The notes beneath the pieces were generated by a model, which saw nothing but the letters and a program-made list of their open reading frames with translations, ran no database searches and was not told the DNA's origin. Made by a program: the position numbers and the translations under genes. Of a stretch of DNA of 64,000 nucleotides, positions 7,629 through 47,941 are shown piece after piece. The stretch comes from Escherichia phage RB16: sequence record NC_014467.1; one strand, given 5' to 3'. Each line of letters starts with the position of its first letter. Position 1 is the first letter of the stretch.

Positions 7629-7629
7629 A

Positions 7630-8484
7630 ATGAAACAATATCTTGATATCGTCAACACCGTTCTAACACACGGTACTGAATCAACCGATCGTACTGGTGT
7701 TGGTACATTGCGCATCTTCGGGATGCAAGCACGTTGGAACCTCGCAGAAGGTTTCCCAGCGACTACCAGCAAACAGCTATTCTTCAAACCGTGTAAGCAT
7801 GAATTACAATGGTTCCTCGAAGGTTCTACCAACGTGGAAACACTGCGTAAAATGACGTGGGGTGAAGATAGCGATAAGCGGACGATCTGGGACGATAACT
7901 ACGAAAATCAGGCTAAAGCGCTGGGTTATACGCATGGTTATCTGGGACCGATCTACGGGCATCAATGGCGCTCATTTGGTGCGGAAGGTTCATTCAGTGG
8001 TGTTGACCAGATTGCTCGAATCGTCAAAGAACTGAAAGAAAAACCAGACGATCGCGGGATCATCGTTTCCGCCTGGAACCCTGTTGATCTTGATGATATG
8101 GCTTTGCGTCCGTGTCACTGTTTCTTCCAGTTCGTCGTAATCAACGGTAAACTGTCTCTACAGTGGTATCAGCGTTCAGTTGATGTCTTCTTAGGGTTGC
8201 CGTTCAATATCGCCTCCTACGCTCTCCTGACGCATATTATCGCTGATATTTGCGGGTATGAAGTGGGTGATCTGGTTTGGACTGGTGGCGATGTCCATAT
8301 CTACAAAAACGCAGTAGAACAAGCGAAAGAGTTGTTGAAGCCGGAACGCGCACCGCTTCCACTTCCGACCCTTTATATGCCGAAGGTAAATAGCTTACTT
8401 GATTTGGATCAAGAATTCTTTGACTCCATCCATTTGAAAGACTATAATCACCACGGCTCGCTAAAAGCAGCTATGGCAGTATAA
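7630..8484 (+). CDS. td: thymidylate synthase (uninterrupted, no intron)
   Basis: 284 aa; conserved TS motifs (DRTGVGT, WNPVD, PCH, SVDVFLGLPFNIASYALL); continuous ORF. Confidence 0.9.
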   Translation: MKQYLDIVNTVLTHGTESTDRTGVGTLRIFGMQARWNLAEGFPATTSKQLFFKPCKHELQWFLEGSTNVETLRKMTWGEDSDKRTIWDDNYENQAKALGYTHGYLGPIYGHQWRSFGAEGSFSGVDQIARIVKELKEKPDDRGIIVSAWNPVDLDDMALRPCHCFFQFVVINGKLSLQWYQRSVDVFLGLPFNIASYALLTHIIADICGYEVGDLVWTGGDVHIYKNAVEQAKELLKPERAPLPLPTLYMPKVNSLLDLDQEFFDSIHLKDYNHHGSLKAAMAV

Positions 8485-8486
8485 AC

Positions 8487-8510
8487 AAAGGGGGCGAAAG
8501 CCCCTTTCTT
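8487..8510 (+). terminator. hairpin GGGGGC-GAAA-GCCCC between td and nrdA
   Basis: Read directly. Confidence 0.5.
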
Positions 8511-8524
8511 AACAAGGTAAGATA

Positions 8525-10777: not shown

Positions 10778-10781
10778 CGGA

Positions 10782-10803
10782 GAAGCCCCGAAAGGGGCTT
10801 TTT
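10782..10803 (+). terminator. hairpin AGCCCC-GAAA-GGGGCT + T-run
   Basis: Read directly after nrdA stop. Confidence 0.5.
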
Positions 10804-10806
10804 GAT

Positions 10807-11295
10807 ATGATAACACAATCGCGATTGAAAGAATTATTGACGTATGACAAAGAAACTGGTATTTTTCACTGGAAAGTAAAACTGAATAACAACCATGACA
10901 TAACAAAACCTGCTGGCGTTGTGTATGATGGATATGTTAGGATACAGGTAGACGGTAAAAAATATCGAGCGCACCGATTAGCGTGGTTGTATGTATATGG
11001 CTATATGCCAGAACTTATCGACCACAAAAACGGAATAACTACCGATAATTGGATAGATAATTTGCGGATTGCTTCATGCACTCAAAATCAATACAACAGC
11101 AAGATTCGAAAAGATAACACGTCTGGAATCAAAGGCGTTTCTTTTCATAAAAGAACTGGAAAATGGCAAGCAAAATGCCGTGTTGATGGAATAGTTCATT
11201 ATTTGGGATTATTCCACACAACAACCGAAGCCGAATCCGCTGTAATTGCGTTTCGACATAAACACCATCAAGAATATAGTAACGACGGGAAATAA
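10807..11295 (+). CDS. HNH-AP2 homing endonuclease (paralog 3) at the nrdA/nrdB junction (position of mobE in T4)
   Basis: HNH motif (IDHKNGITTDNWIDNL) + AP2-like domain (IKGVSFHKRTGKWQA); start taken after the hairpin. Confidence 0.75.
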   Translation: MITQSRLKELLTYDKETGIFHWKVKLNNNHDITKPAGVVYDGYVRIQVDGKKYRAHRLAWLYVYGYMPELIDHKNGITTDNWIDNLRIASCTQNQYNSKIRKDNTSGIKGVSFHKRTGKWQAKCRVDGIVHYLGLFHTTTEAESAVIAFRHKHHQEYSNDGK

Positions 11296-13039: not shown

Positions 13040-13446
13040 TGGAATCGAAAGTTTATAGAATGTCTCTTGACAAATGCGGTCGAATAGACCGCAGTTTTAT
13101 CAAGTGTGGTGAGTTAAGAAATTGCGTTTACTGTATTGAAATCGACGGCGTGATCGTGTATGTTGGTAAAGCAAAAGACATGTGGAAGCGATTAGATACG
13201 TACAGGAATTCAAAATACTGGAGGGAAGCAAACCCCAGCAACATTTTGAAAACCGCACGTCTGGAAATGGCAATCAAAAAACGTAAGCGTGTGAATCTCA
13301 TTGTGACAACACACGACGAAAACACATATCATAATTTTGAAATAAACATGATCCGAAAAATTAATCCTGAATGGAATAAACAGCACTATGACAAAGCTAA
13401 CCAAAAACCAGAAAACACTCTTCAACCAATTAATGAAGTTGTGTAA
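13036..13446 (+). CDS. denA: endonuclease II (GIY-YIG family)
   Basis: 136 aa = T4 DenA length; GIY-YIG-like VYCIEIDGVIVYVGKA...R; T4 synteny nrdB-denA-rnlA. Confidence 0.75.
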   Translation: MMESKVYRMSLDKCGRIDRSFIKCGELRNCVYCIEIDGVIVYVGKAKDMWKRLDTYRNSKYWREANPSNILKTARLEMAIKKRKRVNLIVTTHDENTYHNFEINMIRKINPEWNKQHYDKANQKPENTLQPINEVV

Positions 13447-14545
13447 CGAAACCGAATGCTTTTACTTTATTGACCAAAAAACCGTAATGCAAACCCACGT
13501 TCGCATTTTCAACTATCGTATGGCAAGTTACAGCGATTGGTTGAAACCTGGTGCGCTGGAGTGTCGCGGTATTATGTTTGCGATGGATGGAGACACCCCC
13601 GTAAAACTCGTCAGCCGTCCTATGGAGAAGTTTTTCAACTATGCTGAGGTAAAGGCATGGGAAGCACTTAAAGAGGCTCCTGTGACGATTGGCGACACCG
13701 TAGTTGATGTGATGATCAAAGAAGATGGTTCCTTAATCTCAACCTTCTGCGATTCCGGCTATCTGGGCGTTAAATCTAAAGCGTCAGTTCAGTCTGAACA
13801 GGCTATGGATGCTATGAGCGTGATCCAATCTAACCGCGCATTGTTCGATCGCCTGACCGAACTGGTGGTTGATGGGTTCACCGTTAACATGGAATACGTC
13901 GCACCGACTAACCGCATTGTAATTGGTTATCAAGACCCCGCTGTTGTGATCCTGAACATCCGTAATAACGACACGGGCGAATACGTCGATTATCAGGACA
14001 TCTTCGCAGATAGTGTATTACGTCCGTTCCTTGTTGAGCGTGAGAAAATCGAAGTCACCGATCTGGATGCATTCATTACCGAAGCCTACACGAAAGAAGG
14101 TTTTGAGGGTTACGTAATCAAAACTGATAAAGGGTTCGTGAAAGCGAAAACTAACTGGTACGTAAACCTACACCGCACGAAAGATAGCATCAACAATAAT
14201 AAGGATCTGTTCTTAAATATTGTTGAAAATACCGTCGATGACCTGAAACAAATGTTCCTCGATGATATGTACGCACTCAAGAAAATTGACGCATTCGAAA
14301 CGTTATTCCTTGATAGTCTGAATCGTCTGACTGCAAAAGCATTCCAGTCAATCGAAGACACGAAAGGCAAATCACGCAAAGATTACGCGATCGCCCTGAG
14401 TTCTGACTTAACCCCTGACGGTCGTATCATCTTCGGGCCTATGATGCGTTATTTTGATGATACCGATAAGCAAAAGCTGGTCGATAACATCGTTGCATTA
14501 ATGGCGAAGAACTACGAACAGTTTATACCGGAAGAATATAAATGA
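13388..14545 (+). CDS. rnlA: RNA ligase 1
   Basis: N-terminal region aligns by eye with T4 gp63 (LFNQLMKLC...ASYSDWLKPGALECRGIMFAMDG). Confidence 0.85.
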   Translation: MTKLTKNQKTLFNQLMKLCNETECFYFIDQKTVMQTHVRIFNYRMASYSDWLKPGALECRGIMFAMDGDTPVKLVSRPMEKFFNYAEVKAWEALKEAPVTIGDTVVDVMIKEDGSLISTFCDSGYLGVKSKASVQSEQAMDAMSVIQSNRALFDRLTELVVDGFTVNMEYVAPTNRIVIGYQDPAVVILNIRNNDTGEYVDYQDIFADSVLRPFLVEREKIEVTDLDAFITEAYTKEGFEGYVIKTDKGFVKAKTNWYVNLHRTKDSINNNKDLFLNIVENTVDDLKQMFLDDMYALKKIDAFETLFLDSLNRLTAKAFQSIEDTKGKSRKDYAIALSSDLTPDGRIIFGPMMRYFDDTDKQKLVDNIVALMAKNYEQFIPEEYK

Positions 14546-14868: not shown

Positions 14869-15191
14869 AAATAACGACATTAGCCCTTGTTCTGGGCGTT
14901 CTGTTGGTCGGGTGTGCTGAGAAGCCCCCTGAAAAGATTTTGCCGACTTTACCCGCTAAGGTAAACCCTGTTGATGTGAAATGGAAAGTAATAGCGGAAG
15001 TAAGGGAAATCGACGGGAAGAAATATCTCGTTATGCCGTTTGACGGCAACCCATACGTTGCGCTATCATATCCAGACTCATTGATTTTTCGTAGCTGGAT
15101 GAATGACGTTAAGCGACAGAAAGATCAAACCGATAATATCCTATGTGCCGTGGGATATTCTGAAAAATGTAAATTGAGAGATTCTAAATGA
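14865..15191 (+). CDS. putative lipoprotein (108 aa)
   Basis: Signal peptide with lipobox-like LLVGC. Confidence 0.5.
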   Translation: MKITTLALVLGVLLVGCAEKPPEKILPTLPAKVNPVDVKWKVIAEVREIDGKKYLVMPFDGNPYVALSYPDSLIFRSWMNDVKRQKDQTDNILCAVGYSEKCKLRDSK

Positions 15192-16075
15192 ACTTGTTTA
15201 TTACTGTAGGCGTACCAGGTAGCGGGAAAACTACATGGGCGAAAGAAAAAGCGCGTCAACTGGGGAACACTCTGACTGTTTCCCGTGACGATATCCGTCG
15301 AACCCTTTATTGTGCTGGCGGTGATCTAACTGGCTACCGCTTCACCGAAGAGAAAGAAAAACTGGTAACTCAGATGCAAACCAATATTGTTCTTAGTGCT
15401 CTGGGGCATGGAAAGAACGTTATTGTACACAATACGCATCTTAAACCAGGCGACCATATCTTCTGGAAAGAACTCGCGAAAGGAACAGGCGCGGAGTTGC
15501 ATTTCGAATACTTTGATGTTGATATCGTCGAACTGCTGAAGCGCAACCATAAACGCGGTGTAAATGCTTTGCCTGTCTCCCGTGTATGGGAAATGTTTAC
15601 ACAGTATCGTAAATTGCGTGGTTGGGTTCCGGCTATACAGTACGCAGATCCAAACAAACCAAAATGCGTTATCTTCGACGTTGACGGAACGTTAACCAAA
15701 GTTGGACAGCGTAGCCCGTATGACTTCACGAAGGTAATCGACGATCCTGCTAACCCTCCGGTTCAGGAACTGTTCAGGATGTATAAAGCCGCTGGTTATG
15801 CCTGTGTTGTTGTATCGGGGCGTGAGGGTACTGTACAGTGCGCACATGATACCGCTGCAAGCCTGATCGGGTATGATGTTGACCTGAGTGATGGTATTTT
15901 CATGCGTGAAGAAGGTGATCACCGTCACGATTTTCACGTAAAAGAGCAAATACTTGTTGAAAAGATTCTCGATAAGTATTATCCTGTTCTTGCAGTGGAC
16001 GACCGAGACACCCCTACCGGAATGTGGCGAATGAACGGTATCCCATGTTTCCAGGTTGATTACGGCGACTTCTAA
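15188..16075 (+). CDS. pseT: polynucleotide 5'-kinase/3'-phosphatase
   Basis: P-loop GVPGSGKTTWA at N-terminus, HAD-type phosphatase motif DVDGT in C-half; T4 synteny. Confidence 0.85.
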   Translation: MNLFITVGVPGSGKTTWAKEKARQLGNTLTVSRDDIRRTLYCAGGDLTGYRFTEEKEKLVTQMQTNIVLSALGHGKNVIVHNTHLKPGDHIFWKELAKGTGAELHFEYFDVDIVELLKRNHKRGVNALPVSRVWEMFTQYRKLRGWVPAIQYADPNKPKCVIFDVDGTLTKVGQRSPYDFTKVIDDPANPPVQELFRMYKAAGYACVVVSGREGTVQCAHDTAASLIGYDVDLSDGIFMREEGDHRHDFHVKEQILVEKILDKYYPVLAVDDRDTPTGMWRMNGIPCFQVDYGDF

Positions 16076-17780: not shown

Positions 17781-17857
17781 GGCCCTTTAGCTTAATTGGT
17801 TAGAGCGGGTGACTCATAATCGCGCGGTTGCTGGTTCGAATCCAGCAGGGGCCACCA
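17781..17857 (+). tRNA. tRNA with CAU anticodon (Met or lysidine-Ile)
   Basis: Cloverleaf folded by hand: acceptor GGCCCTT/AGGGGCC, D-arm, anticodon loop CTCATAA, T-arm GCTGG-TTCGAAT-CCAGC, encoded CCA. Confidence 0.75.
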
Positions 17858-17862
17858 AATAC

Positions 17863-17938
17863 GCAGGTGTAGTTCAATTGGTAGAATATCTGGTTTCCAT
17901 CCAGATTGTTGAGGGTTCGAGTCCCTTCACCTGCTCCA
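17863..17938 (+). tRNA. tRNA-Gly (UCC anticodon)
   Basis: Acceptor GCAGGTG/CACCTGC, anticodon stem TCTGG/CCAGA with loop TTTCCAT, T-loop TTCGAGT, encoded CCA. Confidence 0.8.
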
Positions 17939-35919: not shown

Positions 35920-38139
35920 TTACAGTTTAACTTCTTTTTCTTCCAGGACGATTTCGCAATCGAATGTTGCACCTTCCCAGAACTTATGCGGGATAATGTC
36001 AGTCGCTTTAACCGATACTTTGGTTTCTTCAAAATCCATATCCGCAAACCAGGCGTGGCCTACAACGATACCGTACATTACACGGCTCAGGCGCTTGTTC
36101 AGTGCGCGTACTTCGTTGATGGTTGCCTTTGTTTCTTTATCAAGGTACTCGATTACCTTATCCTTGTCAAGCGCTGCGAGTTCAGCTTTAACAGCATCGT
36201 AAGCCCACAGGATGATCAGGTCGCCGTTGTTCAGTTTCTTCTTACCTTCGGCACGTTTCGCAACGGTTGCCGCTACAGCAGGAAGGGAGGAAACACCCTT
36301 GATTTTCAGATTCAGTTCTTTCGACATATAAACATCAGTCGAATCGGTACGGGTTACTTTCGGGGAGAATCCATAATCACGAATACCCTGTTCAGATAAC
36401 CATTCACCAGCGGCTTCACCGTATTTCTGTTTCAGACCTTCGGCATTACGTAAACCGATCGCGTCGTCACGGAAGAACTTCATCACCTTCTGGCGACCTT
36501 TCAGGATTTCCAGACGGATAGAGTCGTTTACATACTCTTTACCGGAGATCCCGCGAGTCATCGCACGGTTAACCAGAGGCAGACTTGTAAAGTCAACCAG
36601 AACCGACATACGGTCTTCACCGATTTTTGCCAGCGGCTTGATGGTCAAACCAGAAGCGCGGAGGTTTTTCAGTGTCGGAATATCAGTTTCCAGAGGCAGA
36701 ACTTTAACGTTTACGATACCGTCTTTAACGATGGTAAAGTTACGCACCTGCTTAGTTTCGATCTGTTCAGGCAGTCCCAGTTCTTTCTGTTTGCTTTCTG
36801 GGATAGTTACGTAACCTTGCAGATCCGTGTTAATGGAAATGTTAGGACGTGAACTGTTGCCGACCAGATGTTTAACCGATACTTTGGTTGTTGTCTGGGT
36901 AAATTTCGGTGTCCAGATTTCGTGCGTTACCATTTGTGCGGCTAATGCTTTGCGTTCTTCCGGTGTTTTCGCATTTGCGATCTGTTCTGACAGTTGATCC
37001 AGAGTATCATCTTCTTTCTGTACTGTCTGACGGCCTGTACGGTTGTACGCCCAGTGTTCAGAAGACAGGTCGATCACTGTGTCAGTTTCTGCCAGCAGTT
37101 CTAGAGCATCAACCAGAGTGAATGCGTTTTCGTCTGGAACCATGTTGTAATCAACACCTTCAATCAGACGTTTACCCGCATCAACTACCGCTTCCGCGAT
37201 CAGGTCTTTGGCGTTGGAATAATCCTGCTTAGTAAAGCAGTTATCGTAAGCCTTAATCAGACGAACGTCACCGACTTTTTTCAGCACTTTCCATGCCAGA
37301 TCAGGGTTCATGGTATGAAGTGCATGATACAGAACCACGTACAGAACCTGTTCACCTTCCATCGTAGCTGGATCAAATCCGTCGATATCGTTGATTGCGT
37401 TATCACCCAGCGCCCAGATGTTTTTGATATGCTCAGGAACCAGCACAACACCGTTTGCAGCGTTCAGGACATACACGCGCCCTTCGTCAATGTAGATCGC
37501 ATGGGTAGCATCACCTACTTTAACTTCAATACGCGCTGATGTTTGAGCGGTAATGATTTCAGCAAATGCTGGCTCGTATGCGTCGAAACCTTCAACGAAT
37601 TTATGCAATGCGTTGGTTGCTTCTGCCATTTTTTCCAGCAGAGGACGGTTAACATAGTAACCATATTCCAGGAACGCAATGCTGTTAAACGTCAGAGGGA
37701 GAACCGCACACGCTTTCAGGATGTCATCGGTACGCCAGCAGTTATCATAACCATCCGTCAGGAAGATCAGGCTGTTCAGGTTGCCGTTTTCGGATTGCAG
37801 GTCAGTTGCAATCTCAGCAGCCAGATTCAGAGGTTCGACGAAACCAGTACAACCAGTAGGTTTCAGATAACGGTCGATCGCGGTGCAGATATTGGTCAGA
37901 TCCGATACGTTGCTAACCTTCTCACCACGGAACACAGTACCGTAATCGCCTTTGCTGGAGAAGTACAGGATCGAAACAGTATCATCCTGTTTAACCAGGC
38001 TTGCCAGATTCGCTTTCAGGTGCTTACGAATTTTCGGCAATTCGCTGTACATTGAACCGGAAACGTCGCAAACGAAAACGTGGTTGGTCGGAGTCGGTTT
38101 AGATACTGCATTTTTGAATTCGATATTTGTAATTGACAT
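35920..38139 (-). CDS. von Willebrand factor A (vWA) domain protein, 739 aa
   Basis: N-terminal MIDAS motif DVSGSM with downstream FLTDGYDN; C-terminal ~500 aa unassigned. Confidence 0.7.
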   Translation of the reverse strand: MSITNIEFKNAVSKPTPTNHVFVCDVSGSMYSELPKIRKHLKANLASLVKQDDTVSILYFSSKGDYGTVFRGEKVSNVSDLTNICTAIDRYLKPTGCTGFVEPLNLAAEIATDLQSENGNLNSLIFLTDGYDNCWRTDDILKACAVLPLTFNSIAFLEYGYYVNRPLLEKMAEATNALHKFVEGFDAYEPAFAEIITAQTSARIEVKVGDATHAIYIDEGRVYVLNAANGVVLVPEHIKNIWALGDNAINDIDGFDPATMEGEQVLYVVLYHALHTMNPDLAWKVLKKVGDVRLIKAYDNCFTKQDYSNAKDLIAEAVVDAGKRLIEGVDYNMVPDENAFTLVDALELLAETDTVIDLSSEHWAYNRTGRQTVQKEDDTLDQLSEQIANAKTPEERKALAAQMVTHEIWTPKFTQTTTKVSVKHLVGNSSRPNISINTDLQGYVTIPESKQKELGLPEQIETKQVRNFTIVKDGIVNVKVLPLETDIPTLKNLRASGLTIKPLAKIGEDRMSVLVDFTSLPLVNRAMTRGISGKEYVNDSIRLEILKGRQKVMKFFRDDAIGLRNAEGLKQKYGEAAGEWLSEQGIRDYGFSPKVTRTDSTDVYMSKELNLKIKGVSSLPAVAATVAKRAEGKKKLNNGDLIILWAYDAVKAELAALDKDKVIEYLDKETKATINEVRALNKRLSRVMYGIVVGHAWFADMDFEETKVSVKATDIIPHKFWEGATFDCEIVLEEKEVKL

Positions 38140-40758: not shown

Positions 40759-41013
40759 TCAAAAAATATGCGTAAGGTTTCCGGCGTTGTTCGGGTATTC
40801 CACGTAATCGCCACGGAATATGTTTAGATCGGAATCGAACTTAAATCCTTGACCCCTGACATCCTCATGACGGGAAATATAAGAACATCCGTACTTTTGT
40901 AGATCTTCCATGTACATTTCAGTGATGCGTTTTGCTTTGTCCATTCCCCGACCTTCAAATCGGGAACGGCGATAATGTTCCAGCAAAAACGCATATAACT
41001 TTTCGTATGTCAC
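40759..41013 (-). CDS. hypothetical protein (84 aa)
   Basis: ORF track. Confidence 0.4.
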   Translation of the reverse strand: MTYEKLYAFLLEHYRRSRFEGRGMDKAKRITEMYMEDLQKYGCSYISRHEDVRGQGFKFDSDLNIFRGDYVEYPNNAGNLTHIF

Positions 41014-41918
41014 AGAACTTTCCTTATCTGTTTGGCTATTGCCTCGATAACTGGCACGGAAACGGAGTTACCCGCTTGCTTGTATGCTTGTTTTTTACTC
41101 GATGGAATAATAAACGAATCTGGGAAGCCTTGCAAGCGAAAACATTCACGCGGGGTTAATCGTCGTGGGTTCTTCCCGTCCTGCAACACCAGACATTGAA
41201 CGCCGTCCTTGTAATATTGCGCGGTGATGGTTCCTGTGTGCGTAGAATCGGCTGTGACGGCCTGATAACCAAAGCCCTTACCGTTTGCCTTATTTCGTTC
41301 CTTACGCTCTCTAAAGCCTTTCCACGCGTTATCTGATAGAGTGTACGAATCATCAGCATCTTCGAGGATATCACCTACGCGCGTAGGGGTACGCGGGGGA
41401 ACCGGAAACGAAAAGAATACATCATCCAGGAAGCAGACAATGAACACGCGTTCACGTCGCTGGGGTAGTCCGAAATCTTTTGTATTCAGTCGCTGATAGA
41501 ATACGTTGTATCCTTCGGCCTCAAGAAGCCCGTAAATCGTTTTAAACGTCTTTCCCTTGTCATGGGTTAGCAATTCAGGCACGTTCTCAAAGAACAGCAC
41601 ACGGGGCTTTTTAGCGCGTATGATGCGGAGGATTTCAAAGAACACCGTACCGCGAGCATCATCAAATCCCAGTTTCAATCCGGCTTTACTGAATGCCTGA
41701 CACGGGAACCCAGCCAACAGGATATCGTGATCGGGTACTTTGTTTTCATCAATGGCAAACAGATCACCCTGTAGGTTATCGTCGCCCCAGTTTTCAATAT
41801 AGGTTTGCTGTGCGTGTTTGTCGATCTCAGACGTTAAAAGGCATTCGACCCCGCCGAATGCATTATCAAATCCAAATCGAACTCCACCAACGCCAGCGCA
41901 GAGGTCAATTATTTTCAT
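41010..41918 (-). CDS. DNA (cytosine-5)-methyltransferase
   Basis: Motif I DLCAGVGG, motif IV GFPCQAFS, ENV motif. Confidence 0.85.
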   Translation of the reverse strand: MKIIDLCAGVGGVRFGFDNAFGGVECLLTSEIDKHAQQTYIENWGDDNLQGDLFAIDENKVPDHDILLAGFPCQAFSKAGLKLGFDDARGTVFFEILRIIRAKKPRVLFFENVPELLTHDKGKTFKTIYGLLEAEGYNVFYQRLNTKDFGLPQRRERVFIVCFLDDVFFSFPVPPRTPTRVGDILEDADDSYTLSDNAWKGFRERKERNKANGKGFGYQAVTADSTHTGTITAQYYKDGVQCLVLQDGKNPRRLTPRECFRLQGFPDSFIIPSSKKQAYKQAGNSVSVPVIEAIAKQIRKVL

Positions 41919-42178
41919 GCGTCGAAATCTATCTCGTCAATTTTGTAAGACTGTTCATCGATATCAGCCCACAGGGTGACTTTAACCGTTTTGCGGTCTT
42001 CGTACATGTCACGACCATCATAGCCGCCTACGTATTCGCTGTGCGTCTGTTCATCCACTTCCAAACGCAGACTATCGCGCATGATTTGGACAACAGCCTG
42101 TTCCATCGTAACAGAATCTGGGTGTTGTTCTGTGCCACCAACTCGAACATCTTTCAGGTGTAAAATAATATCAGACAT
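41915..42178 (-). CDS. hypothetical acidic protein (87 aa)
   Basis: ORF track. Confidence 0.4.
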   Translation of the reverse strand: MSDIILHLKDVRVGGTEQHPDSVTMEQAVVQIMRDSLRLEVDEQTHSEYVGGYDGRDMYEDRKTVKVTLWADIDEQSYKIDEIDFDA

Positions 42179-42447
42179 CAGTTGCTACCCCACGTATAAA
42201 AATCAAATTTTTCGGTTTGCGCTTCTTCAACACGGATCACGTAATCACTGGTATCGTATTTGTCAGCGGTACGGAATTCAACCGAATACACACGAGCAAA
42301 CACAGCATAAAGCGCTTCGCGGATTTTCTCTGCGATCTCTTCATCGGTCTTATCGATATGCAACGTAAGCATATCGGAAACCACATCTTCAACGCGACGA
42401 ACATCACGCTTATCAATGTAACCAGTGTATAAATTTACTTCTTTCAT
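42178..42447 (-). CDS. hypothetical protein (89 aa)
   Basis: ORF track. Confidence 0.4.
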   Translation of the reverse strand: MKEVNLYTGYIDKRDVRRVEDVVSDMLTLHIDKTDEEIAEKIREALYAVFARVYSVEFRTADKYDTSDYVIRVEEAQTEKFDFYTWGSN

Positions 42448-43442
42448 TTGTAATACCTCATAACATGATCTTTGTACACGAGTTCAATGAAGTTATCCCA
42501 GAACTCGCGATCGACTTCTTTCGGATAGGTAGAGATTGCAGCCAGGCGTTCAACTTCACCCATCACTTCCTCCAGTTTTTCCTGTACTTCGGCAAACGGG
42601 ACATTACCAGCTTTAACCGATTTCAACAGGTCACTCTCAGGAAGAGGATAAACGATATCACCGTGCTTGTAAATCTGTACCAACTGCATACCGCCGCGCA
42701 ATGCGTGACTTAATGCTTTCCAATCGATCCCATTGTTGGCTTCTGCTTGTCGTGCGCGTTCGCCATATTCATCCCAGAGCTTATACACGGATTTCTTCAT
42801 TTCCGCTACGGTGATTGTGAACTGGAATTTACGACCCAGAACTTCGTAGAAATTCTGCATACCACCTTTTTCGCTATAATGCAAAATAGAACGACAGAAT
42901 TCATTGGTCGGTAGTTGGTCTTTGATGTCGCCAACTTTGGTATTAACCAACGATGAAGCGTTTTCATCGTAATGTGCATTATCGGTGTCTTGCAACACGT
43001 CATACACTTCACGCAATGCAGCCAGGCGTGAACCCTTAACGCCATATTTCGCGGCTTGCTTACGAACATAACCGAACAGACCAGTTAACTCCGTGGTGTA
43101 GAAACGCCAGCGGTTAGCGCGGATATACTGCCAGATTTCAGAGTTAGCGATCAGCTTGCTATCATCAGCATGAAGCATATCGAGCGCTACGGTATCACCA
43201 TCACACGCAAGGCTGATGAACTTAGGCAGACTATACAACTGACGGTCTACGTCATCAACGGTGTTTTTAGAGTTCTTATCGCCCGTGCTCGTGTCGATGG
43301 TCTTTGGGGCTTTACCCAGTAAGATATCGCGTGGATGCGGGAGAAAGATCCCTTTATAATCTTTGTCGCTTGTCGGGGTGTTCAGTCCGTACAAAAAACT
43401 TCCAAACACCATTTCAACTACGGTTTTCATAAAATTCTCCAA
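42444..43442 (-). CDS. Pol-beta-superfamily nucleotidyltransferase (GS-x10-DxD), 332 aa
   Basis: N-terminal FGSFLYGLNTPTSDKDYKGIF matches the minimal nucleotidyltransferase signature. Confidence 0.6.
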   Translation of the reverse strand: MENFMKTVVEMVFGSFLYGLNTPTSDKDYKGIFLPHPRDILLGKAPKTIDTSTGDKNSKNTVDDVDRQLYSLPKFISLACDGDTVALDMLHADDSKLIANSEIWQYIRANRWRFYTTELTGLFGYVRKQAAKYGVKGSRLAALREVYDVLQDTDNAHYDENASSLVNTKVGDIKDQLPTNEFCRSILHYSEKGGMQNFYEVLGRKFQFTITVAEMKKSVYKLWDEYGERARQAEANNGIDWKALSHALRGGMQLVQIYKHGDIVYPLPESDLLKSVKAGNVPFAEVQEKLEEVMGEVERLAAISTYPKEVDREFWDNFIELVYKDHVMRYYK

Positions 43443-43947
43443 ATAATTCTTTCGCTTTCGCTTCGTATACTACACTAGCTTCTTCTGGCGTGGCAAACCT
43501 ACCCAAAAACATATCTTTGCGGTTATGTTTGATTTTAGCTATCCATTTATCACGAGCATTGTCGAAATAGACCCCCTTATAGCCAGATTTATTGGTTTTC
43601 GGAGTTTTTGCTTTCATCGTGTTCTGCTGTTGCGTTACTTCCTGTAGGTTATCTTTGCCATTACCGTTCCCGACCCCGCGTTTATGGTCAACGATAGCGG
43701 GAAGATACCCGTTAGCAACATAGAAAACAATTCGATGAACATAGTACGACTTGCCGTTATATCCTATTGCAGTGTATCCAAATGAATTCGTACTACCCGC
43801 AATACTTCCTACTGTAGCCCTACTACCCCTGTGAACTTTCCAATAACACAACCCTGTGTCAACATCAACCCGAAGAATTTCTAACAATGAATCTATTTCG
43901 CTGCGTTCATCTTCTAGCGTTCTTTTCCACCGTCCGTGGCATTTCAT
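43414..43947 (-). CDS. HNH-AP2 homing endonuclease (paralog 5)
   Basis: HNH motif (VDHKRGVGNGNGKDNL...QQQN) + AP2-like (YKGVYFDNARDKWIAKI). Confidence 0.8.
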   Translation of the reverse strand: MKCHGRWKRTLEDERSEIDSLLEILRVDVDTGLCYWKVHRGSRATVGSIAGSTNSFGYTAIGYNGKSYYVHRIVFYVANGYLPAIVDHKRGVGNGNGKDNLQEVTQQQNTMKAKTPKTNKSGYKGVYFDNARDKWIAKIKHNRKDMFLGRFATPEEASVVYEAKAKELFGEFYENRS

Positions 43948-44336
43948 TCTTCAATTCCCAAGATAGCAGCAATTGCTTTCAGGTTTTCGGTAGTGATTTC
44001 GGGAACATTCACAGTGTATGAATTACCGAACATAGGCTGAATTTTAGCACACAATTCTTTACGATACATCATTTCTTTATAATGTTCTTCACTGCGATAG
44101 ACAGTGTACCCCATCCATCCATCGGTTCGTCCAAATGTGCGGTCAATCTTTTCATTGGTGTACGATTTCGGATCGAAGGTTTCAGAAGTTGACGCATAGA
44201 TGTATTTTCTTGCTACTTTATGCACATACAGTGTGCGCGGTTTTCTGTTCTGTCTTGTATCAGAACGAATACCGCAATCATAAAGGGTATCGCCCACTTT
44301 CACATCAGATAAATTTCTCATTTCATTTTCCAACAC
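43944..44336 (-). CDS. hypothetical protein (130 aa)
   Basis: ORF track. Confidence 0.45.
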   Translation of the reverse strand: MLENEMRNLSDVKVGDTLYDCGIRSDTRQNRKPRTLYVHKVARKYIYASTSETFDPKSYTNEKIDRTFGRTDGWMGYTVYRSEEHYKEMMYRKELCAKIQPMFGNSYTVNVPEITTENLKAIAAILGIEE

Positions 44337-44569
44337 TTTTTCTTTTCACAATAAAACACAGGGAGTTTAGACAATACCGGAGTAATGACATTCTCACCAG
44401 TTTTCGTATTATGCACCAGTTCGATAGTAAGTGATTTACCCATCGCAGATTTGACAATATCCAGTTTCAGGATCTCACGATTACCCTTTGTATTGATTTC
44501 CGCAACATAATAATCATTACCGTTGATGTTAATAACATCACCCATCAAAACGCTTCTGGCATGTTTCAT
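44318..44569 (-). CDS. hypothetical protein (83 aa)
   Basis: ORF track. Confidence 0.4.
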   Translation of the reverse strand: MKHARSVLMGDVININGNDYYVAEINTKGNREILKLDIVKSAMGKSLTIELVHNTKTGENVITPVLSKLPVFYCEKKKCWKMK

Positions 44570-45141
44570 TTAAACGTCACCTTCGTATACAGCGAGGACA
44601 TCAAAGAACGGTCAACACCGTCAATAACAATCATACCCTGGTACGCGTCTTTGTCTTTGCGGGAGTACATACGACACAGCAGCGAACCATCTTTTGCGAT
44701 GTATTCAACCTGGTATGTGCGACGTTCTGTTTTCAGAATATCACCAATAGCAACCGGACGTTCTACCTTTTCCCGTTTGTTCAGTGAAAATGACAACACA
44801 TTATTTCCATCTACATCAACCGTTTTATCTTTTGCCGCACAATCACGGCTATCAATGCTATGGATGTTAACTGAATACACGCTATCAGAAAGCAGCCTAT
44901 GATCATCACCTGAACCAATTGTCGCGATGATGGTCGATCCAGTCGTGCTGCGATTGTCAGACACAAACACATACACAGTGAACGGTACACCGAGTTTAAT
45001 ATCTTTCGCAACAGATTGAACAGTGAACGGTTCTTTGAACCCGCGAGATAGTGAGTGATTAATAAAAACGCCATCACCAGGGATCAGAGCGCGACGAACA
45101 ATTTTGGTTTCTTCGGTTTTGATAAATGCAGTTTTGTTCAT
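44566..45141 (-). CDS. hypothetical protein (191 aa)
   Basis: ORF track. Confidence 0.5.
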   Translation of the reverse strand: MNKTAFIKTEETKIVRRALIPGDGVFINHSLSRGFKEPFTVQSVAKDIKLGVPFTVYVFVSDNRSTTGSTIIATIGSGDDHRLLSDSVYSVNIHSIDSRDCAAKDKTVDVDGNNVLSFSLNKREKVERPVAIGDILKTERRTYQVEYIAKDGSLLCRMYSRKDKDAYQGMIVIDGVDRSLMSSLYTKVTFK

Positions 45142-45410
45142 AATGATTTCCTCTCAAATTCTTCATCAGATTTCCAGTACACGTTAAAGTTACGGCAATC
45201 ATGATCAGAAGTCAATGTATATTTTTCACTTGTTTTTTCATCGGTGATAACCATCGTTTCATTTTCGATAGAGTCAACACCATACACAAACACTTTATCA
45301 CCGCGCGTATTCAGGAACGCGTCACCTTCTTCAATCAACTGCCAACAGTTCACTGGTAAACCGCCCGTGCTTATCGGACGGCTAACAAGACAGTAAGGGT
45401 GTTTAATCAT
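45138..45410 (-). CDS. hypothetical protein (90 aa)
   Basis: ORF track. Confidence 0.4.
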   Translation of the reverse strand: MIKHPYCLVSRPISTGGLPVNCWQLIEEGDAFLNTRGDKVFVYGVDSIENETMVITDEKTSEKYTLTSDHDCRNFNVYWKSDEEFERKSL

Positions 45411-45601
45411 TTAAATTCTTCCATTGCATAGGAAGTAAGATCTTTGAAATACCTTGCGGTGTTGCCTTCTGGGTTGTTTGTAATCTCCATCAGGATAACA
45501 GCACTATCAACTCCTGCTTTCTTAGCCATGAATGAAAGGGCTTCGGTAGCAATAATCGTTGCTTTCATAACATCAGCTTTAGAAACGTTGATTGTATTCA
45601 T
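45407..45601 (-). CDS. hypothetical protein (64 aa)
   Basis: ORF downstream of promoter cassette. Confidence 0.4.
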   Translation of the reverse strand: MNTINVSKADVMKATIIATEALSFMAKKAGVDSAVILMEITNNPEGNTARYFKDLTSYAMEEFK

Positions 45602-45690
45602 TTTTCTTCCTTTTCATTAATCACTTGGTATGTGTGTATAATACAAAAGCCCTCACGAGAACGCAAGGGCTTTTTATTAAATTCCGTATA
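45602..45690 (-). promoter_or_regulatory. promoter/stem-loop cassette (TTGCGT in hairpin AGCCCTTGCGTTCTCGTGAGGGCT, 17-bp spacer, TATTAT)
   Basis: Read on minus strand. Confidence 0.55.
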
Positions 45691-45774
45691 AATCTGGATT
45701 CACAATAACCGCACATAAAAGATCATCTATATGTGCGGCTTCTTGTTCTAAGGTTTGTTTAGATGAATGTGCTT

Positions 45775-46836
45775 TCAAGCAACCCCCGTAAAGGCGTTTA
45801 CTATCTGGAAATGATCATCGAAGAATTCCCCTTGTCGTTGTACGACCTCATGTAAGGGCATCCAGAACGCCTCTGCTGCATCGTCAGCGCCTCCCATAAT
45901 GCGGGGCAGACTTCCATCATTGTTAGGTTCTAACTTGATGTATTGCGCTACAGTCGGTTTTGAGAAGTGTACGGAACGCTTCGGATGATCAAACAACATC
46001 GAATTGCGAATTGAACCACGGATAACCTTTTCAGGAACCTTGATCCGAACCTCTTCGAGCAATTCACGGATCGCACAATCCAGGAATGTTTCGTTTGCGT
46101 TTTTGTGTCCACCTGGCAGGGCCAACGCGCCTTTACCCGGTGCAAACTTACGACGAATTACCAGAAGGTGATTGTTACACACAACCACGCTATCACCCGT
46201 ACAACAGTTTAACGCGTCGGGGTATGGGTACGCTTTGAACTTCTCCAGTTCATCTTCCCATTTCTCGAACTCGTAGTACAAGCGCCAGAACGTATCGGTC
46301 ATCATCCATCCGTTAAGAGAACCCACGACAGCAGCAGGAACATAACGGGCGATCTTCTCGTCCCATCCATTTTTATGTAAAAATATGGTTGGACGCAGGT
46401 CGGTAGCAGATAAATCTTTGCCGTCAACCTTAACCGGATCAACCGGAACATGAGTCCATCCGAACGCTTTAAGCCAGTACGAATCAGCATCTTTTTCGTA
46501 ACCGTAGATCGCGATGTTATCGCCTTTAGTTTCGTCGATTGCTGTACGAACAGAGGTTTTCCATTTTTCTTCATTGTAAAGGTAATCTGGAATCGGTTTG
46601 AATTGCACACGGGACACATCTTCATATTTGAACTCAGACAGTAACCAGCTTGTAATCATACGTTCCCGTTCGGTTGCTGTTAGCGGGTTTAAAACGTTAG
46701 GGTAAGCATAAGCGGAACCCAGGAGGATATAAACGGCCTTCGACTCTTCAAGTGCTTTACGCACCATTGCCGCATGACCATTATGGAAGGGTTGGAATCT
46801 GCCAATTACGACAGCTTTATCAAATTTGTATTTCAT
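45775..46836 (-). CDS. bifunctional NMN adenylyltransferase / Nudix hydrolase (NadM/NatV-like)
   Basis: N-terminal HxGH motif (GRFQPFHNGH); C-terminal Nudix box (GGHKNANETFLDCAIRELLEEVRI). Confidence 0.8.
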   Translation of the reverse strand: MKYKFDKAVVIGRFQPFHNGHAAMVRKALEESKAVYILLGSAYAYPNVLNPLTATERERMITSWLLSEFKYEDVSRVQFKPIPDYLYNEEKWKTSVRTAIDETKGDNIAIYGYEKDADSYWLKAFGWTHVPVDPVKVDGKDLSATDLRPTIFLHKNGWDEKIARYVPAAVVGSLNGWMMTDTFWRLYYEFEKWEDELEKFKAYPYPDALNCCTGDSVVVCNNHLLVIRRKFAPGKGALALPGGHKNANETFLDCAIRELLEEVRIKVPEKVIRGSIRNSMLFDHPKRSVHFSKPTVAQYIKLEPNNDGSLPRIMGGADDAAEAFWMPLHEVVQRQGEFFDDHFQIVNAFTGVA

Positions 46837-46861
46837 AACGTGCTCCACGTTTAAAGGGTAA

Positions 46862-46960
46862 TCATAAAACAGACGCAATAATCAATACACCAAGCAAACC
46901 GCCAATAAAGCCGAAGAATAGCGAAATGAAGATAGATAAGATGATCTGTTTTATGTTCAT
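46862..46960 (-). CDS. small hydrophobic peptide (32 aa), candidate membrane micro-protein
   Basis: Hand-translated MNIKQIILSIFISLFFGFIGGLLGVLIIASVL between SPFH and NMNAT genes; below ORF-track cut-off. Confidence 0.3.
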   Translation of the reverse strand: MNIKQIILSIFISLFFGFIGGLLGVLIIASVL

Positions 46961-46981
46961 TATAGTATTCTCGTTTTAAGA

Positions 46982-47010
46982 ATCAAGCCCCCAAGGAAAG
47001 GGGGCTTTAA
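46982..47010 (-). terminator. hairpin GCCCCC...GGGGGC
   Basis: Read directly downstream of SPFH gene. Confidence 0.4.
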
Positions 47011-47014
47011 AATC

Positions 47015-47941
47015 TTATTTACGAGAATCGAAAATCACTTTACCAGCGTAATCTGAACCCATGACAGTCTGAGGCACATCACCTTTATAACGGGTAGAGT
47101 AGTTCATCTGTACATCCAGTTCTTTCCAGCGGATCATTTCTGGTGTGATGGTACGTTGCAACACGGCGTTCGCTTCTGCTTCTTTCTTCGCTGCATACAG
47201 TTTAGCGTCTGCATCACGTTCGTTGGCGATCGCATCGTTTTCACGCGCCTGACGATTTGCTTCCGCTTGTTTTACCTGTTGCTGTGAAGTCTGTTCGACT
47301 TTTGCCAGTTCCGCACGAGCGGCGTTAACCTGTTCTTCACGAATTTTCGTGTTAGTTACCTGTTCCATGATAACATCCGGCAGGGTGATATCCTGCAAGA
47401 ATACCTGTTTCACGGTGTAACCGTAAGGACGCGCATACTCTTCGACTTCCTGTTGAATTGCGGTCTGCAACTGGTTCTGGATCTTAGCATCAAACAGATC
47501 CTGTGCTTTTGGAACCGATTTGCCGAACTCGCGAACGGTTGACAGCAGTTTTTCGGTTACATACTTATCCAGTGCCTGTTCCTGGTCTCCCGCGTTGATG
47601 CGGTTGATAGGCGCTTTGTTACCGTCAAATTGCAGCATAACGGTCATATCAACAGTGGATTTAAACTTATCCTGTGAAGGAACCTGCAATTTATCGAACT
47701 TCTTCGCAATGTCTTTCGTGCTGAAAGTATCGAAATCAGCCAGCGGGTTTACGATATGGAAACCAGGCAGTACAGGTTTCGGAGAAACCTTACCCATGAA
47801 GGTCTGAGTTTTGACCGTGCCGTCCTGTACTACTGTAAAGGAGTTCGGAACCAGCCACAGTGCGGCTACTACGCCCAGAGCGATCAGAGTGGTTTTCTTC
47901 GGGTTGTTCAGGATAGTATTCATATTCATAGTATGTCTCAT
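47015..47941 (-). CDS. SPFH/Band-7 (prohibitin/HflK-like) membrane protein
   Basis: N-terminal TM helix, SPFH-like core, Ala/Glu/Gln-rich coiled coil. Confidence 0.65.
   Translation of the reverse strand: MRHTMNMNTILNNPKKTTLIALGVVAALWLVPNSFTVVQDGTVKTQTFMGKVSPKPVLPGFHIVNPLADFDTFSTKDIAKKFDKLQVPSQDKFKSTVDMTVMLQFDGNKAPINRINAGDQEQALDKYVTEKLLSTVREFGKSVPKAQDLFDAKIQNQLQTAIQQEVEEYARPYGYTVKQVFLQDITLPDVIMEQVTNTKIREEQVNAARAELAKVEQTSQQQVKQAEANRQARENDAIANERDADAKLYAAKKEAEANAVLQRTITPEMIRWKELDVQMNYSTRYKGDVPQTVMGSDYAGKVIFDSRK

What the first reader, a model, noticed from the sequence alone, without database searches (positions are those of the whole stretch)
42444..43442. Pol-beta-type nucleotidyltransferase of unknown substrate
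The N-terminus carries the GS-x10-DxD minimal nucleotidyltransferase signature, with ~250 further residues unassigned. The phage also encodes RNA ligase and polynucleotide kinase, the classic T4 tRNA-repair counter-defence. A nucleotidyltransferase could extend that repair repertoire (for example 3'-end rebuilding) or modify a host factor or signalling nucleotide.
Basis: partly seen in the sequence, partly recalled or inferred. Interest (0 to 1): 0.5.

Follow-up and report, generated by a model that had tools for sequence, protein, structure and literature searches.

The report
Phage RB16 NrdC.11 RNA-repair nucleotidyltransferase
The gene is real but already catalogued: it is phage RB16's copy of T4 nrdC.11, an RlaP-family enzyme that most likely adds back nucleotides lost from cut tRNAs before the phage's ligase reseals them.

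Summary
The ORF and its GS-x10-DxD motif are real. The true start is the ATG at 43430, giving 328 aa, not the TTG at 43442. The window is Escherichia phage RB16, and the protein is identical to its annotated NrdC.11.

[quoted passage not shown] It is about 52% identical to T2 nrdC.11. Catalytic and C-terminal motif residues are nearly invariant in 157 homologues. The AF2 model (pLDDT 86.5) shows an NTase domain followed by a helical domain with a beta-rich insert.

The window also encodes RnlA and PseT, about 27 kb away. Same-clade homologues sit inside RNA-repair cassettes:
- HD-Pnk, Rnl1 and the NTase in uncultivated phages.
- The NTase, Pnkp and Rnl1 on two MAG contigs.
- Ro60, RtcB, RtcA, the NTase, a canonical RlaP and Hen1 in Nitrosospira.

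A December 2025 preprint shows that bacterial RlaPs add 1-2 NMPs to RNA 3'-OH ends. It lists T4 NrdC.11 as an uncharacterised family member.

It is well supported by context but untested for the phage clade. One observation absent from the two RlaP papers I could read: bacteria often carry this clade in tandem with a canonical RlaP.

The parts
42444..43430 (-). nrdC.11 coding sequence (328 aa plus stop): an RlaP-family Pol-beta nucleotidyltransferase.
   Evidence: ORF. 100% identical to RB16 NrdC.11. PF10127 at 44 bits against a cut-off of 23. PHROG 388 at E = 8e-118.
43437..43440 (-). Shine-Dalgarno GGAG, 6 nt upstream of the ATG at 43430. The TTG at 43442 that the ORF lister used lies within it.
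   Evidence: Sequence read on the minus strand. The database protein has 328 aa.
43146..43430 (-). N-terminal NTase domain (about residues 1-95). Strands 2-9, 23-30, 44-48 and 61-67; helices 68-77 and 80-86.
   Evidence: AF2 model, pLDDT 86.5. Pfam best stretch 7-136. hhalign to canonical RlaP covers residues 5-93.
43359..43403 (-). The GS-x10-DxD signature (G10 S11 ... D22 K23 D24).
   Evidence: Translation is GSFLYGLNTPTSDKD. Kept in 153-156 of 157 homologues.
43245..43253 (-). D60-V-D62 at the start of strand 61-67. D62 is the probable third catalytic carboxylate.
   Evidence: Translation is DVD. D62 is D or E in 156 of 157 homologues and D60 in 152 of 157. By my reading of the hhalign alignment, D62 aligns with the invariant Asp of canonical RlaP, 'LDLNGWD'.
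43179..43181 (-). D84, a fourth conserved acidic residue in helix 80-86 ('ALDMLH').
   Evidence: Translation. D or E in 157 of 157 homologues. By my reading of the alignment, it aligns with the invariant Glu of canonical RlaP, 'EWL'.
42447..43145 (-). Clade-specific C-terminal domain (residues 96-328). It is helical with a beta-rich insert at about 150-205. It carries the motifs KQAAKYGVKGSR (residues 124-135) and DWKALSHALR (residues 236-245).
   Evidence: Secondary structure of the AF2 model. Q125, R225, K238, H242 and R245 are kept in 157 of 157 homologues, Y129 and D236 in 156 of 157. This half does not align with canonical RlaP at profile level.
13388..14545 (+). rnlA, T4-type RNA ligase 1. 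The presumed downstream partner that seals the rebuilt ends.
   Evidence: PF09511 at E = 1.8e-21 plus PF20819 at E = 1.3e-39. 97% identical to Lw1 rnlA.
15188..16075 (+). pseT, polynucleotide 5'-kinase/3'-phosphatase. The presumed upstream partner that produces the 3'-OH the NTase needs and the 5'-P the ligase needs.
   Evidence: PF13671 at E = 9e-19 plus PF25109 at E = 8e-43. 98.6% identical to Lw1 pseT.

Best explanation
The gene is RB16 nrdC.11, an RlaP-family (PF10127) template-independent RNA 3'-terminal nucleotidyltransferase. It is probably the third component of the phage's tRNA-repair pathway.

Proposed sequence of events:
1. A host anticodon nuclease or ribotoxin cuts a tRNA and also removes one or two nucleotides. 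Examples are the wobble-excising RloC type, or trimming after the cut.
2. PseT removes the 2',3'-cyclic or 3'-phosphate and phosphorylates the 5'-OH.
3. NrdC.11 uses its two-metal site (D22, D24 and D62, probably with Mn2+) to add one or two NMPs to the exposed 3'-OH of the 5' fragment.
4. RnlA seals the break, so that a fraction of the tRNA regains full length.

Shown here: the ORF and motif, family membership, orthology to T4/T2 nrdC.11, near-invariance of the catalytic and C-terminal motif residues, the NTase-plus-helical-domain fold, presence of RnlA and PseT in the same genome, and repeated physical linkage of same-clade homologues to RNA-repair genes.

Inferred by homology and context: RNA as acceptor, the 1-2 nt limit, the metal preference, the order of steps, and the identity of the host nuclease being countered.
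For: - **Family and orthology.** PF10127 is above its gathering score. PHROG 388 matches over the full length. The protein is identical to RB16 NrdC.11, 52% identical over 100% of its length to T2 nrdC.11 (H43), and equivalent to Lw1 gp127, annotated 'nrdC.11'.
- **Conservation.** Catalytic residues are conserved in 157 homologues.
- **Partners in cis.** RnlA and PseT are in the window.
- **Phage cassettes.** In uncultivated phage contigs L060 and L062-L067 the order is kinase, HD-Pnk, Rnl1, NTase. In L063 these lie at 3443-4150, 4530-5672, 6020-7144 and 7159-8088, all on the plus strand. The NTase there is 45% identical to the RB16 protein.
- **MAG contigs.** L146 and L147 carry the NTase next to a T4-type Pnkp and an Rnl1.
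- **Bacterial loci.** RtcB lies within four genes in 8 genome loci. L133 carries Ro60, RtcB, RtcA, the NTase, a canonical RlaP and Hen1 in one co-directional row. L152, L154 and L156 place a CCA-type NTase immediately upstream, and L152 and L154 also have RtcB immediately downstream.
- **Biochemistry of relatives.** PfRlaP and PaRlaP add 1-2 NMP to RNA 3'-OH, prefer the 5' half of a cleaved tRNA and prefer Mn2+. They raised aminoacylation of a repaired tRNA that was missing one anticodon-loop nucleotide.
- **Literature context.** The jumbo-phage review states the same prediction for phage RlaPs. In vitro, T4 Pnk plus Rnl1 acting on RloC products gave mostly tRNA lacking the wobble nucleotide, which is the gap such an enzyme would fill.
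Against: - No member of the NrdC.11 clade has been assayed. The preprint labels T4 NrdC.11 'of unknown function', in a different similarity cluster (5) from the enzymes it tested (1a).
- Only the N-terminal 84-130 residues align with canonical RlaP. The C-terminal two-thirds, which should bind the acceptor, is clade-specific.
- In RB16 and T4-like phages the gene is not adjacent to rnlA or pseT. Here it is 27 kb away on the other strand. The near-identical per-genus counts may only reflect shared ancestry.
- Many Rnl/Pnk-encoding actinophages lack it.
- An enzyme without nucleotide specificity restores the correct base only some of the time, and cannot restore wobble-base modifications.
- The T4 nrdC.11-mobD.3 segment was lost from viable genome-reduced T4 mutants in the laboratory.
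Confidence: 0.6

Rival explanations
1. It is an RNA 3'-end nucleotidyltransferase used for a different transaction than gap-filling before ligation. Candidates are rebuilding damaged tRNA 3'-CCA ends, tailing or marking host or phage RNAs, or capping broken ends so that they are not degraded.
For: The same family and context evidence fits any RNA 3'-end reaction. In L152, L154 and L156 the gene sits immediately downstream of a CCA-adding-type enzyme. In 15 bacterial loci it is paired with a canonical RlaP, which suggests the two paralogues do different jobs. The C-terminal domain differs from the characterised enzyme.
Against: The most frequent partners are ligases (Rnl1, RtcB) and end-healing enzymes, which points to a pre-ligation step. 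Adjacency to a dedicated CCA-adding enzyme argues for complementarity, not the same activity. Both phage tRNA genes in the window already encode CCA.
Confidence: 0.2
2. The acceptor is not RNA. The enzyme might nucleotidylylate a host protein or a small molecule. Alternatively it might synthesise a short oligonucleotide or signalling nucleotide, for example a HalB-like oligo-dA that would keep a Hailong-type channel silent, as a counter-defence.
Against: Sequence identity to those folds is only 10-13%, and the matches reflect the generic NTase plus helical-bundle architecture. There are no PADLOC, CD-NTase or antibiotic-NTase family hits. Bacterial RlaPs did not label protein or DNA. The neighbours of clade members are RNA-repair genes, not defence or signalling genes.
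Confidence: 0.1
3. It is part of nucleotide or redox metabolism, as its name (nrdC.11) and some database annotations ('thioredoxin', 'glutaredoxin nrdC') suggest, or it is a decaying gene without function.
For: Some GenBank records label orthologues 'thioredoxin'. The gene lies in the nrdC-tk region and near a NadM-Nudix gene.
Against: There is no thioredoxin-fold hit, and the only significant Pfam family is PF10127. The names come from T4 map position. Catalytic and motif residues are under strong purifying selection in 157 homologues spanning phages, bacteria and archaea.
Confidence: 0.02

Closest known systems
T4 NrdC.11 and its orthologues in T4-like phages (PHROG 388; similarity cluster 5 of PF10127 in bioRxiv 10.64898/2025.12.29.696909)
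   Same: Full-length orthologue. It is 52% identical over 100% of its length to T2 nrdC.11 and 53% to Bp7 nrdC.11. Length and motifs match, and it sits in the same early-gene region. Lw1 gp127 is annotated nrdC.11. A mobile endonuclease sits next to the gene in both T4 (mobD) and RB16 (HNH-AP2).
   Different: Nothing of substance. RB16 has an HNH-AP2 endonuclease inserted directly upstream, which its relatives RB43 and Lw1 lack. T4 NrdC.11 itself has no experimentally known function.
PfRlaP / PaRlaP, the canonical RlaP of Pseudomonas RtcB operons (PF10127 cluster 1a), biochemically and structurally characterised
   Same: Same Pfam family. The GS-x10-DxD motif, the third Asp and a further acidic residue align. 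Both have an N-terminal NTase domain followed by a C-terminal helical domain. Both are linked to RNA ligases and end-healing enzymes.
   Different: Only about 84 N-terminal columns align at profile level, at 82.5% probability. Pfam covers model positions 20-142 of 249. The NrdC.11 type is about 60 residues longer, has a beta-rich insert and has its own C-terminal motifs. In 15 bacterial loci both types occur side by side, so they are probably not interchangeable. No activity data exist for this clade.
HalB of the Hailong defence system (PDB 9dbh/9dbj)
   Different: 13% identity and 217 aa. It makes oligodeoxyadenylate as a signal for an ion-channel effector. There is no HalA-like partner here and no sequence-family relationship.
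Kanamycin nucleotidyltransferase ANT(4') and the related 3c18 NTase-like protein
   Different: They take small-molecule acceptors, share 10% identity, show no family-level hit, and occur in a different genomic context.
CCA-adding enzyme (class II, PF01743)
   Same: A template-independent tRNA 3'-end repair NTase of the Pol-beta superfamily. Phage reviews list it next to RlaP as the other nucleotide-restoring enzyme.
   Different: There is no PF01743 hit. It has a different head/neck/body architecture. It occurs as a separate neighbouring gene in L152, L154 and L156.

Membership tests
[quoted passage not shown] | Score against the family HMM at or above Pfam's gathering threshold. | tested here: met
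   44 bits against a cut-off of 23, E = 2.8e-11. The database entry is also pre-annotated PF10127.16.
[quoted passage not shown] | The Pol-beta catalytic signature: G-S, x9-13, D-x-D, plus a third carboxylate on the neighbouring strand. | tested here: met
   G10 S11 x10 D22 x D24. D62 lies at the start of strand 61-67 and, by my reading of the alignment, aligns with the invariant Asp of canonical RlaP. Conservation in 157 homologues: G10 156, S11 153, D22 154, D24 154, D62 (D or E) 156.
[quoted passage not shown] | C-terminal helical domain homologous to that of canonical RlaP (model positions about 143-249). | tested here: inconclusive
   The best Pfam stretch stops at model position 142. hhalign aligns only residues 5-93. 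The AF2 model does have a helical C-terminal domain, and BFVD phage NTases of canonical size align at TM about 0.55-0.66 normalised to target length. No RlaP structure was in the PDB copy.
[quoted passage not shown] | Genomic association with RNA ligase and end-healing genes. | tested here: met
   The genes are not adjacent in this window (RnlA and PseT are 27 kb away). Same-clade homologues are adjacent to Rnl1 plus HD-Pnk (L060, L062-L067), to Pnkp plus Rnl1 (L146, L147), and to RtcB, RtcA, Ro60 and Hen1 (L133, L122, L127, L152 and others).
[quoted passage not shown] | Adds 1-2 NMP to RNA 3'-OH ends, Mn2+-dependent, and does not act on DNA or protein. | not testable with these tools
   Known only for PfRlaP and PaRlaP.
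T4 NrdC.11 orthologous group (PHROG 388) | Full-length similarity to nrdC.11 of T-even phages and the same family profile. | tested here: met
   PHROG 388 at E = 7.8e-118 over residues 5-331. 52% identity over 100% of the length to T2 nrdC.11. 1447 phage records hold a match covering at least 80% of the query.
CD-NTase / cGAS-like signalling NTases (CBASS) | A hit to CD-NTase profiles, or linkage to a defence or effector gene. | tested here: not met
   No PADLOC hit and no such Pfam hit. None appears among the top structural matches.
Class II CCA-adding enzyme / poly(A) polymerase (PF01743) | PolyA_pol head domain and RNA-binding domains. | tested here: not met
   No PF01743 hit. Poly(A) polymerases appear only at Foldseek probability of about 0.1 or lower.
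HalB (Hailong) oligodeoxyadenylate synthase | Sequence-family relationship and a HalA channel partner. | tested here: not met

The most novel reading that the evidence does not exclude
The NrdC.11-type enzymes may be a functionally distinct arm of the RlaP family, not just a phage copy of the Pseudomonas enzyme. They have their own acceptor-binding C-terminal domain. In 15 of 80 cellular loci they sit immediately upstream of a canonical RlaP within RtcB, RtcA, Ro60 and Hen1 clusters. That arrangement would fit a division of labour, for example different RNA ends, different nucleotides, or a heteromeric enzyme. In T4-like phages this arm alone, together with Pnkp and Rnl1, would make wobble-nucleotide excision by RloC-type nucleases reversible, a lesion previously expected to defeat phage tRNA repair.
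Probability: 0.2. Interest if true: 0.6.

Novelty: already known. Interest (0 to 1): 0.3.

Why it matters
T4's Pnkp and Rnl1 are the classic example of a virus repairing host-inflicted tRNA damage. RloC-type nucleases were proposed to defeat that repair by removing a nucleotide. A conserved phage enzyme that puts nucleotides back would be the next move in that arms race. It is present in about 1,450 sequenced phages, so confirming its activity would assign a function to one of the commonest uncharacterised genes of T4-like phages. For this scan, however, the finding is a known gene with a published predicted role. It is a good candidate for a bench test, not a discovery.

Tried and rejected
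- **PDB sequence searches.** A single-sequence search and a profile search found no relative. The PfRlaP crystal structure is not in the copy.
- **Other family libraries.** NCBIfam and PADLOC gave no meaningful hits.
- **Promoters and terminators.** The scan of 41800-47200 was not clearly above the shuffled expectation: 14 promoter-like sites against 11.9 +/- 3.6, and 8 terminator-like sites against 4.3 +/- 2.0. I make no transcription-unit claim.
- **Second RlaP in the window.** tblastn with 15 canonical RlaPs found nothing, not even nrdC.11 itself.
- **Literature.** The founding paper (Burroughs and Aravind 2016) could not be retrieved. Its content is cited only through later papers.
- **D84 as third catalytic Asp.** I first took D84 for the third catalytic Asp. 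It lies in a helix, so D62 is the better candidate. D84 is still always D or E in the 157 homologues.
- **Co-occurrence counts.** Per-genus counts of NTase, RnlA and PseT are nearly identical. I rejected them as independent evidence because they are confounded by shared ancestry.
- **Short phage NTases.** The roughly 250-aa NTases of Mycobacterium phage DrSeegs and Bacillus phage BC01 match only the N-terminal domain and have no annotated RNA-repair neighbours. They were not used.
Full report
**1. What is at the coordinates**

The minus strand carries an uninterrupted ORF at 42444..43442. The listed TTG start lies inside a GGAG Shine-Dalgarno sequence (43440..43437), which is followed 6 nt later by the ATG at 43430. 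The gene is therefore 42444..43430, encoding 328 aa.

This protein is 100% identical to the database entry "NrdC.11 / nucleotidyltransferase [Escherichia phage RB16]" (P0001, contig 176,788 bp). That protein identity, and the fact that the nearest genomes at DNA level are Pseudotevenvirus Lw1 and relatives at about 85% identity, place the window in phage RB16. The stop codon overlaps the start of the next small gene (ATGA).

43403..43359 translates to GSFLYGLNTPTSDKD, that is G10-S11, ten residues, then D22-K-D24.

**2. More than chance**

- Pfam gives PF10127 "RlaP, RNA repair pathway DNA polymerase beta family" at 44 bits against a gathering score of 23, E = 2.8e-11. It covers residues 7-136, which correspond to model positions 20-142 of 249.
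- PHROG 388 "nucleotidyltransferase" matches over the full length at E = 7.8e-118.
- NCBIfam and PADLOC give nothing meaningful.
- The word-indexed protein search found 1,858 relatives.
- The exhaustive search of 50%-identity representatives found 3,673 at E <= 1e-3 and 872 at E <= 1e-30. Nearly all of the 150 listed were full-length proteins of about 300-360 aa.
- In GenBank phages, 1,675 records match and 1,447 of them cover at least 80% of the query. These include T2 "nrdC.11: nucleotidyltransferase" at 52% identity over 100% of the query.

**3. Anatomy**

An alignment of 19 T4-like orthologues (A1) and one of distant representatives at 30-43% identity (A2) define the conserved positions. 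I then extracted 157 homologues from 81 viral and 76 cellular loci and counted residues:

| Position | Kept in (of 157) |
|---|---|
| G10 | 156 |
| S11 | 153 |
| D22 | 154 |
| D24 | 154 |
| D60 (D or E) | 152 |
| D62 (D or E) | 156 |
| D84 (D or E) | 157 |
| Q125 | 157 |
| Y129 | 156 |
| R225 | 157 |
| D236 | 156 |
| K238 | 157 |
| H242 | 157 |
| R245 | 157 |

The AlphaFold2 model (mean pLDDT 86.5, pTM 0.70) shows three regions:
- An N-terminal alpha/beta NTase domain, with strands 2-9, 23-30, 44-48 and 61-67.
- A long helical region.
- A beta-rich insert at about 150-205, within that helical region.

D62 lies at the start of strand 61-67, so I take it as the third catalytic carboxylate. D84 lies in helix 80-86.

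A profile-profile comparison with 15 canonical RlaPs (A3) aligns only residues 5-93, at 82.5% probability and E = 1e-5. By my reading of that alignment, it superposes GS, DxD, D62 on their invariant Asp, and D84 on their invariant Glu.

The C-terminal two-thirds, with the motifs KQAAKYGVKGSR and DWKALSHALR, is specific to the NrdC.11 clade.

**4. Structural neighbours**

Among predicted viral structures there are full-length relatives with query-normalised TM-scores of 0.6-0.8 at 24-32% identity. Many shorter phage NTases match at lower scores. The afdb50 library was not available.

**5. Surroundings in the window**

The gene lies in a long run of minus-strand early-type genes. In order of transcription they are:
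- A NadM-like NMN adenylyltransferase/Nudix gene (45775..46878).
- Several small ORFs.
- A ProQ-C-terminal-like gene (43944..44336).
- An HNH_3+AP2 endonuclease gene (43414..43947).
- nrdC.11.
- Two small ORFs.
- A C5 cytosine methyltransferase gene (41010..41918).

It also encodes polynucleotide kinase/phosphatase (15188..16075 +; PF13671 plus PF25109). These lie 27 kb away on the other strand, so there is no operon link in this phage.

A promoter and terminator scan was not clearly above shuffled expectation.

**6. Evidence from elsewhere: gene neighbourhoods of the same clade**

*Uncultivated phage contigs.* Two sub-lineages (L063-L065, and L060, L062, L066, L067) share neighbour proteins that are 45-59% identical between the groups. 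Their NTase is 45-46% identical to RB16's. It is the last gene of a co-directional cassette. In L063 this is a P-loop kinase (3443-4150), an HD phosphohydrolase fused to a P-loop kinase, an arrangement I read as an HD-Pnk-type end-healing enzyme (4530-5672), an Rnl1-type ligase (6020-7144) and the RlaP NTase (7159-8088).

*MAG contigs.* L146 is binned as Bathyarchaeota and L147 as "bacterium". Each carries the NTase next to a T4-type Pnkp (kinase plus HAD phosphatase) and an Rnl1.

*Sinorhizobium phage phiM19.* Its NrdC.11 homologue has a "2'-5' RNA ligase" gene 4 kb upstream and an "RNA ligase" gene 5 kb downstream.

*Species-representative genomes.* A scan returned 80 loci, mostly Alphaproteobacteria. 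I clustered the four genes on either side of the NTase, then ran Pfam on cluster representatives:
- RtcB is present within that range in 8 loci.
- Ro60/TROVE is present in 5.
- RtcA is present in 2.
- Hen1 is present in 2.
- A CCA-type NTase with an HD domain is present in 3.
- A canonical, full-length PF10127 RlaP (representative E = 8e-75) sits immediately downstream in 15.

The clearest case is L133 (Nitrosospira). It carries Ro60 (3546-5168), RtcB (5700-6929), RtcA (6946-7962), the NrdC.11-type NTase (7992-8963), a canonical RlaP (8967-9734) and Hen1 (9737-11149), all on one strand.

About 27 of the 80 loci, many of them short contigs, have at least one recognised RNA-repair gene or a canonical RlaP paralogue within four genes. 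That is a hand tally. My gene calls there are crude longest-ORF calls, so the counts are approximate.

**7. Evidence from the literature**

PF10127 was named RlaP because of its linkage to RNA ligases, and it was predicted to restore nucleotides lost from RNA ends before ligation. This is cited in PMC7824862 and PMC6514570. I could not retrieve the original 2016 paper.

A December 2025 preprint (bioRxiv 10.64898/2025.12.29.696909) characterised P. fluorescens and P. aeruginosa RlaP:
- They label RNA but not DNA or protein.
- They add one or two NMPs to a 3'-OH.
- They show little NTP specificity.
- They prefer Mn2+.
- They prefer the 5' half of a nicked tRNA mimic.
- They raised aminoacylation of a repaired tRNA that lacked one anticodon-loop nucleotide.

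The same preprint places T4 NrdC.11 in a separate similarity cluster (5, against 1a) and calls it "of unknown function".

[quoted passage not shown] In vitro, T4 Pnk plus Rnl1 produced mostly tRNA lacking that nucleotide (PMC3458546). The T4 segment nrdC.11-mobD.3 was lost from viable genome-reduced T4 mutants (PMC9825161).

**8. Most likely mechanism**

After a host nuclease cuts a tRNA and removes a nucleotide, four steps would follow:
1. PseT converts the ends to 3'-OH and 5'-P.
2. NrdC.11 extends the 3'-OH by one or two untemplated nucleotides, using D22, D24 and D62 with divalent metal.
3. RnlA seals the break.
4. A fraction of the products regain the right length and sequence.

Shown: the gene, family membership, conservation, the fold, presence of the partner genes, and linkage in relatives. 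Inferred: the acceptor, product length, metal, order of steps and the target nuclease. I put this at 0.6.

The main rival (0.2) is a different RNA 3'-end reaction. It is suggested by the divergent C-terminal domain and by the tandem pairing with canonical RlaP. A non-RNA acceptor or a signalling product (0.1) is supported only by generic fold resemblance. The "thioredoxin" and "nrdC" labels found in some records are naming artefacts (0.02).

**9. Comparison with what is known, and novelty**

The protein is the RB16 orthologue of T4 NrdC.11. It is a member of PF10127 by Pfam's own criterion. It meets the catalytic-motif test, and it meets the gene-association test through its clade relatives.

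It does not meet, or only inconclusively meets, the test of C-terminal homology with the characterised enzymes. Its activity cannot be tested here. It is not a CD-NTase, a CCA-adding enzyme or a HalB family member.

The gene, its family and its predicted role are all in the literature and databases. Some phage records already annotate orthologues as "RNA repair pathway DNA polymerase beta". I therefore rate it "already known".

One point may be new, and then only modestly. In cellular genomes the NrdC.11 type is a separate paralogue that frequently sits in tandem with a canonical RlaP. The preprint text I searched does not mention this.

**10. Verdict**

Interest is 0.3. This is a solid, testable candidate for the missing third enzyme of T4-type tRNA repair, but it is not a new kind of system.

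Noticed in passing
window 43414..43947 (-): This HNH_3 + AP2-domain ORF (177 aa) is an RB16-specific insertion of about 535 bp, exactly between the ProQ_C-like gene and nrdC.11. RB43 and Lw1 run straight from one gene to the other. Its 3' end overlaps the nrdC.11 Shine-Dalgarno sequence and start codon. It is probably a free-standing homing endonuclease. T4 has a different mobile endonuclease (mobD) beside nrdC.11.
   Followed up: partly
window 43944..44336 (-): This 130-aa protein has a phage ProQ C-terminal-like domain (PF24203, E = 6e-17). A homologous gene lies directly upstream of nrdC.11 in Lw1 (gp128, 50% identical at protein level) and in RB43 (69% DNA identity, not checked at protein level). 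An RNA-chaperone-like neighbour might be functionally linked to the NTase, or it might just be syntenic.
   Followed up: partly
L085, L088, L089, L099, L100, L102, L104, L106, L108, L111, L122, L125, L128, L133, L149 (the gene at +1 of the NTase): In 15 of 80 cellular loci the NrdC.11-type NTase is followed within a few bases by a canonical full-length RlaP (about 255-277 aa, 'ESGSRAWGFPSxDSDYD'). These are two paralogues in tandem, often with RtcB, Ro60 or Hen1 nearby. This suggests non-redundant or cooperating activities. The one preprint whose text I searched for it does not mention this.
   Followed up: partly
L063 3443..8088 (+), and the equivalent region in L060, L062 and L064-L067: Uncultivated phage contigs carry a compact RNA-repair cassette: a stand-alone P-loop kinase, an HD phosphohydrolase fused to a P-loop kinase, an Rnl1-type ligase and the NrdC.11-type NTase.
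   Followed up: yes
window 17781..17857 and 17863..17938 (+): tRNA-Met(CAT) and tRNA-Gly(TCC) genes lie 1.7 kb downstream of pseT. Both have the 3' CCA encoded.
   Followed up: partly
window 41010..41918 (-): A Dcm-type C5 cytosine DNA methyltransferase (PF00145, E = 1e-93) lies three genes downstream of nrdC.11. It is conserved in Lw1, GAP161 and relatives.
   Followed up: no
window 45775..46878 (-): A bifunctional NadM-like NMN adenylyltransferase plus Nudix protein. A homologous gene recurs within four genes of nrdC.11 in 7 of the fetched loci. A sigma-70-like promoter match (10 of 12) and a terminator-like hairpin sit just upstream, at 46959..47003.
   Followed up: no
window 35920..38139 (-), 47015..47941 (-), 58403..59674 (-): Three large accessory proteins: a 739-aa von Willebrand A-domain protein, an SPFH/Band-7 protein, and a SPASM-domain (radical-SAM maturase-like) protein.
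   Followed up: no
database annotations of orthologues: Several GenBank records label nrdC.11 orthologues 'thioredoxin' or 'glutaredoxin nrdC' (for example phages POP12, PSD2002, X20 and FL38). This annotation error has been propagated from the gene's map-position name.
   Followed up: yes
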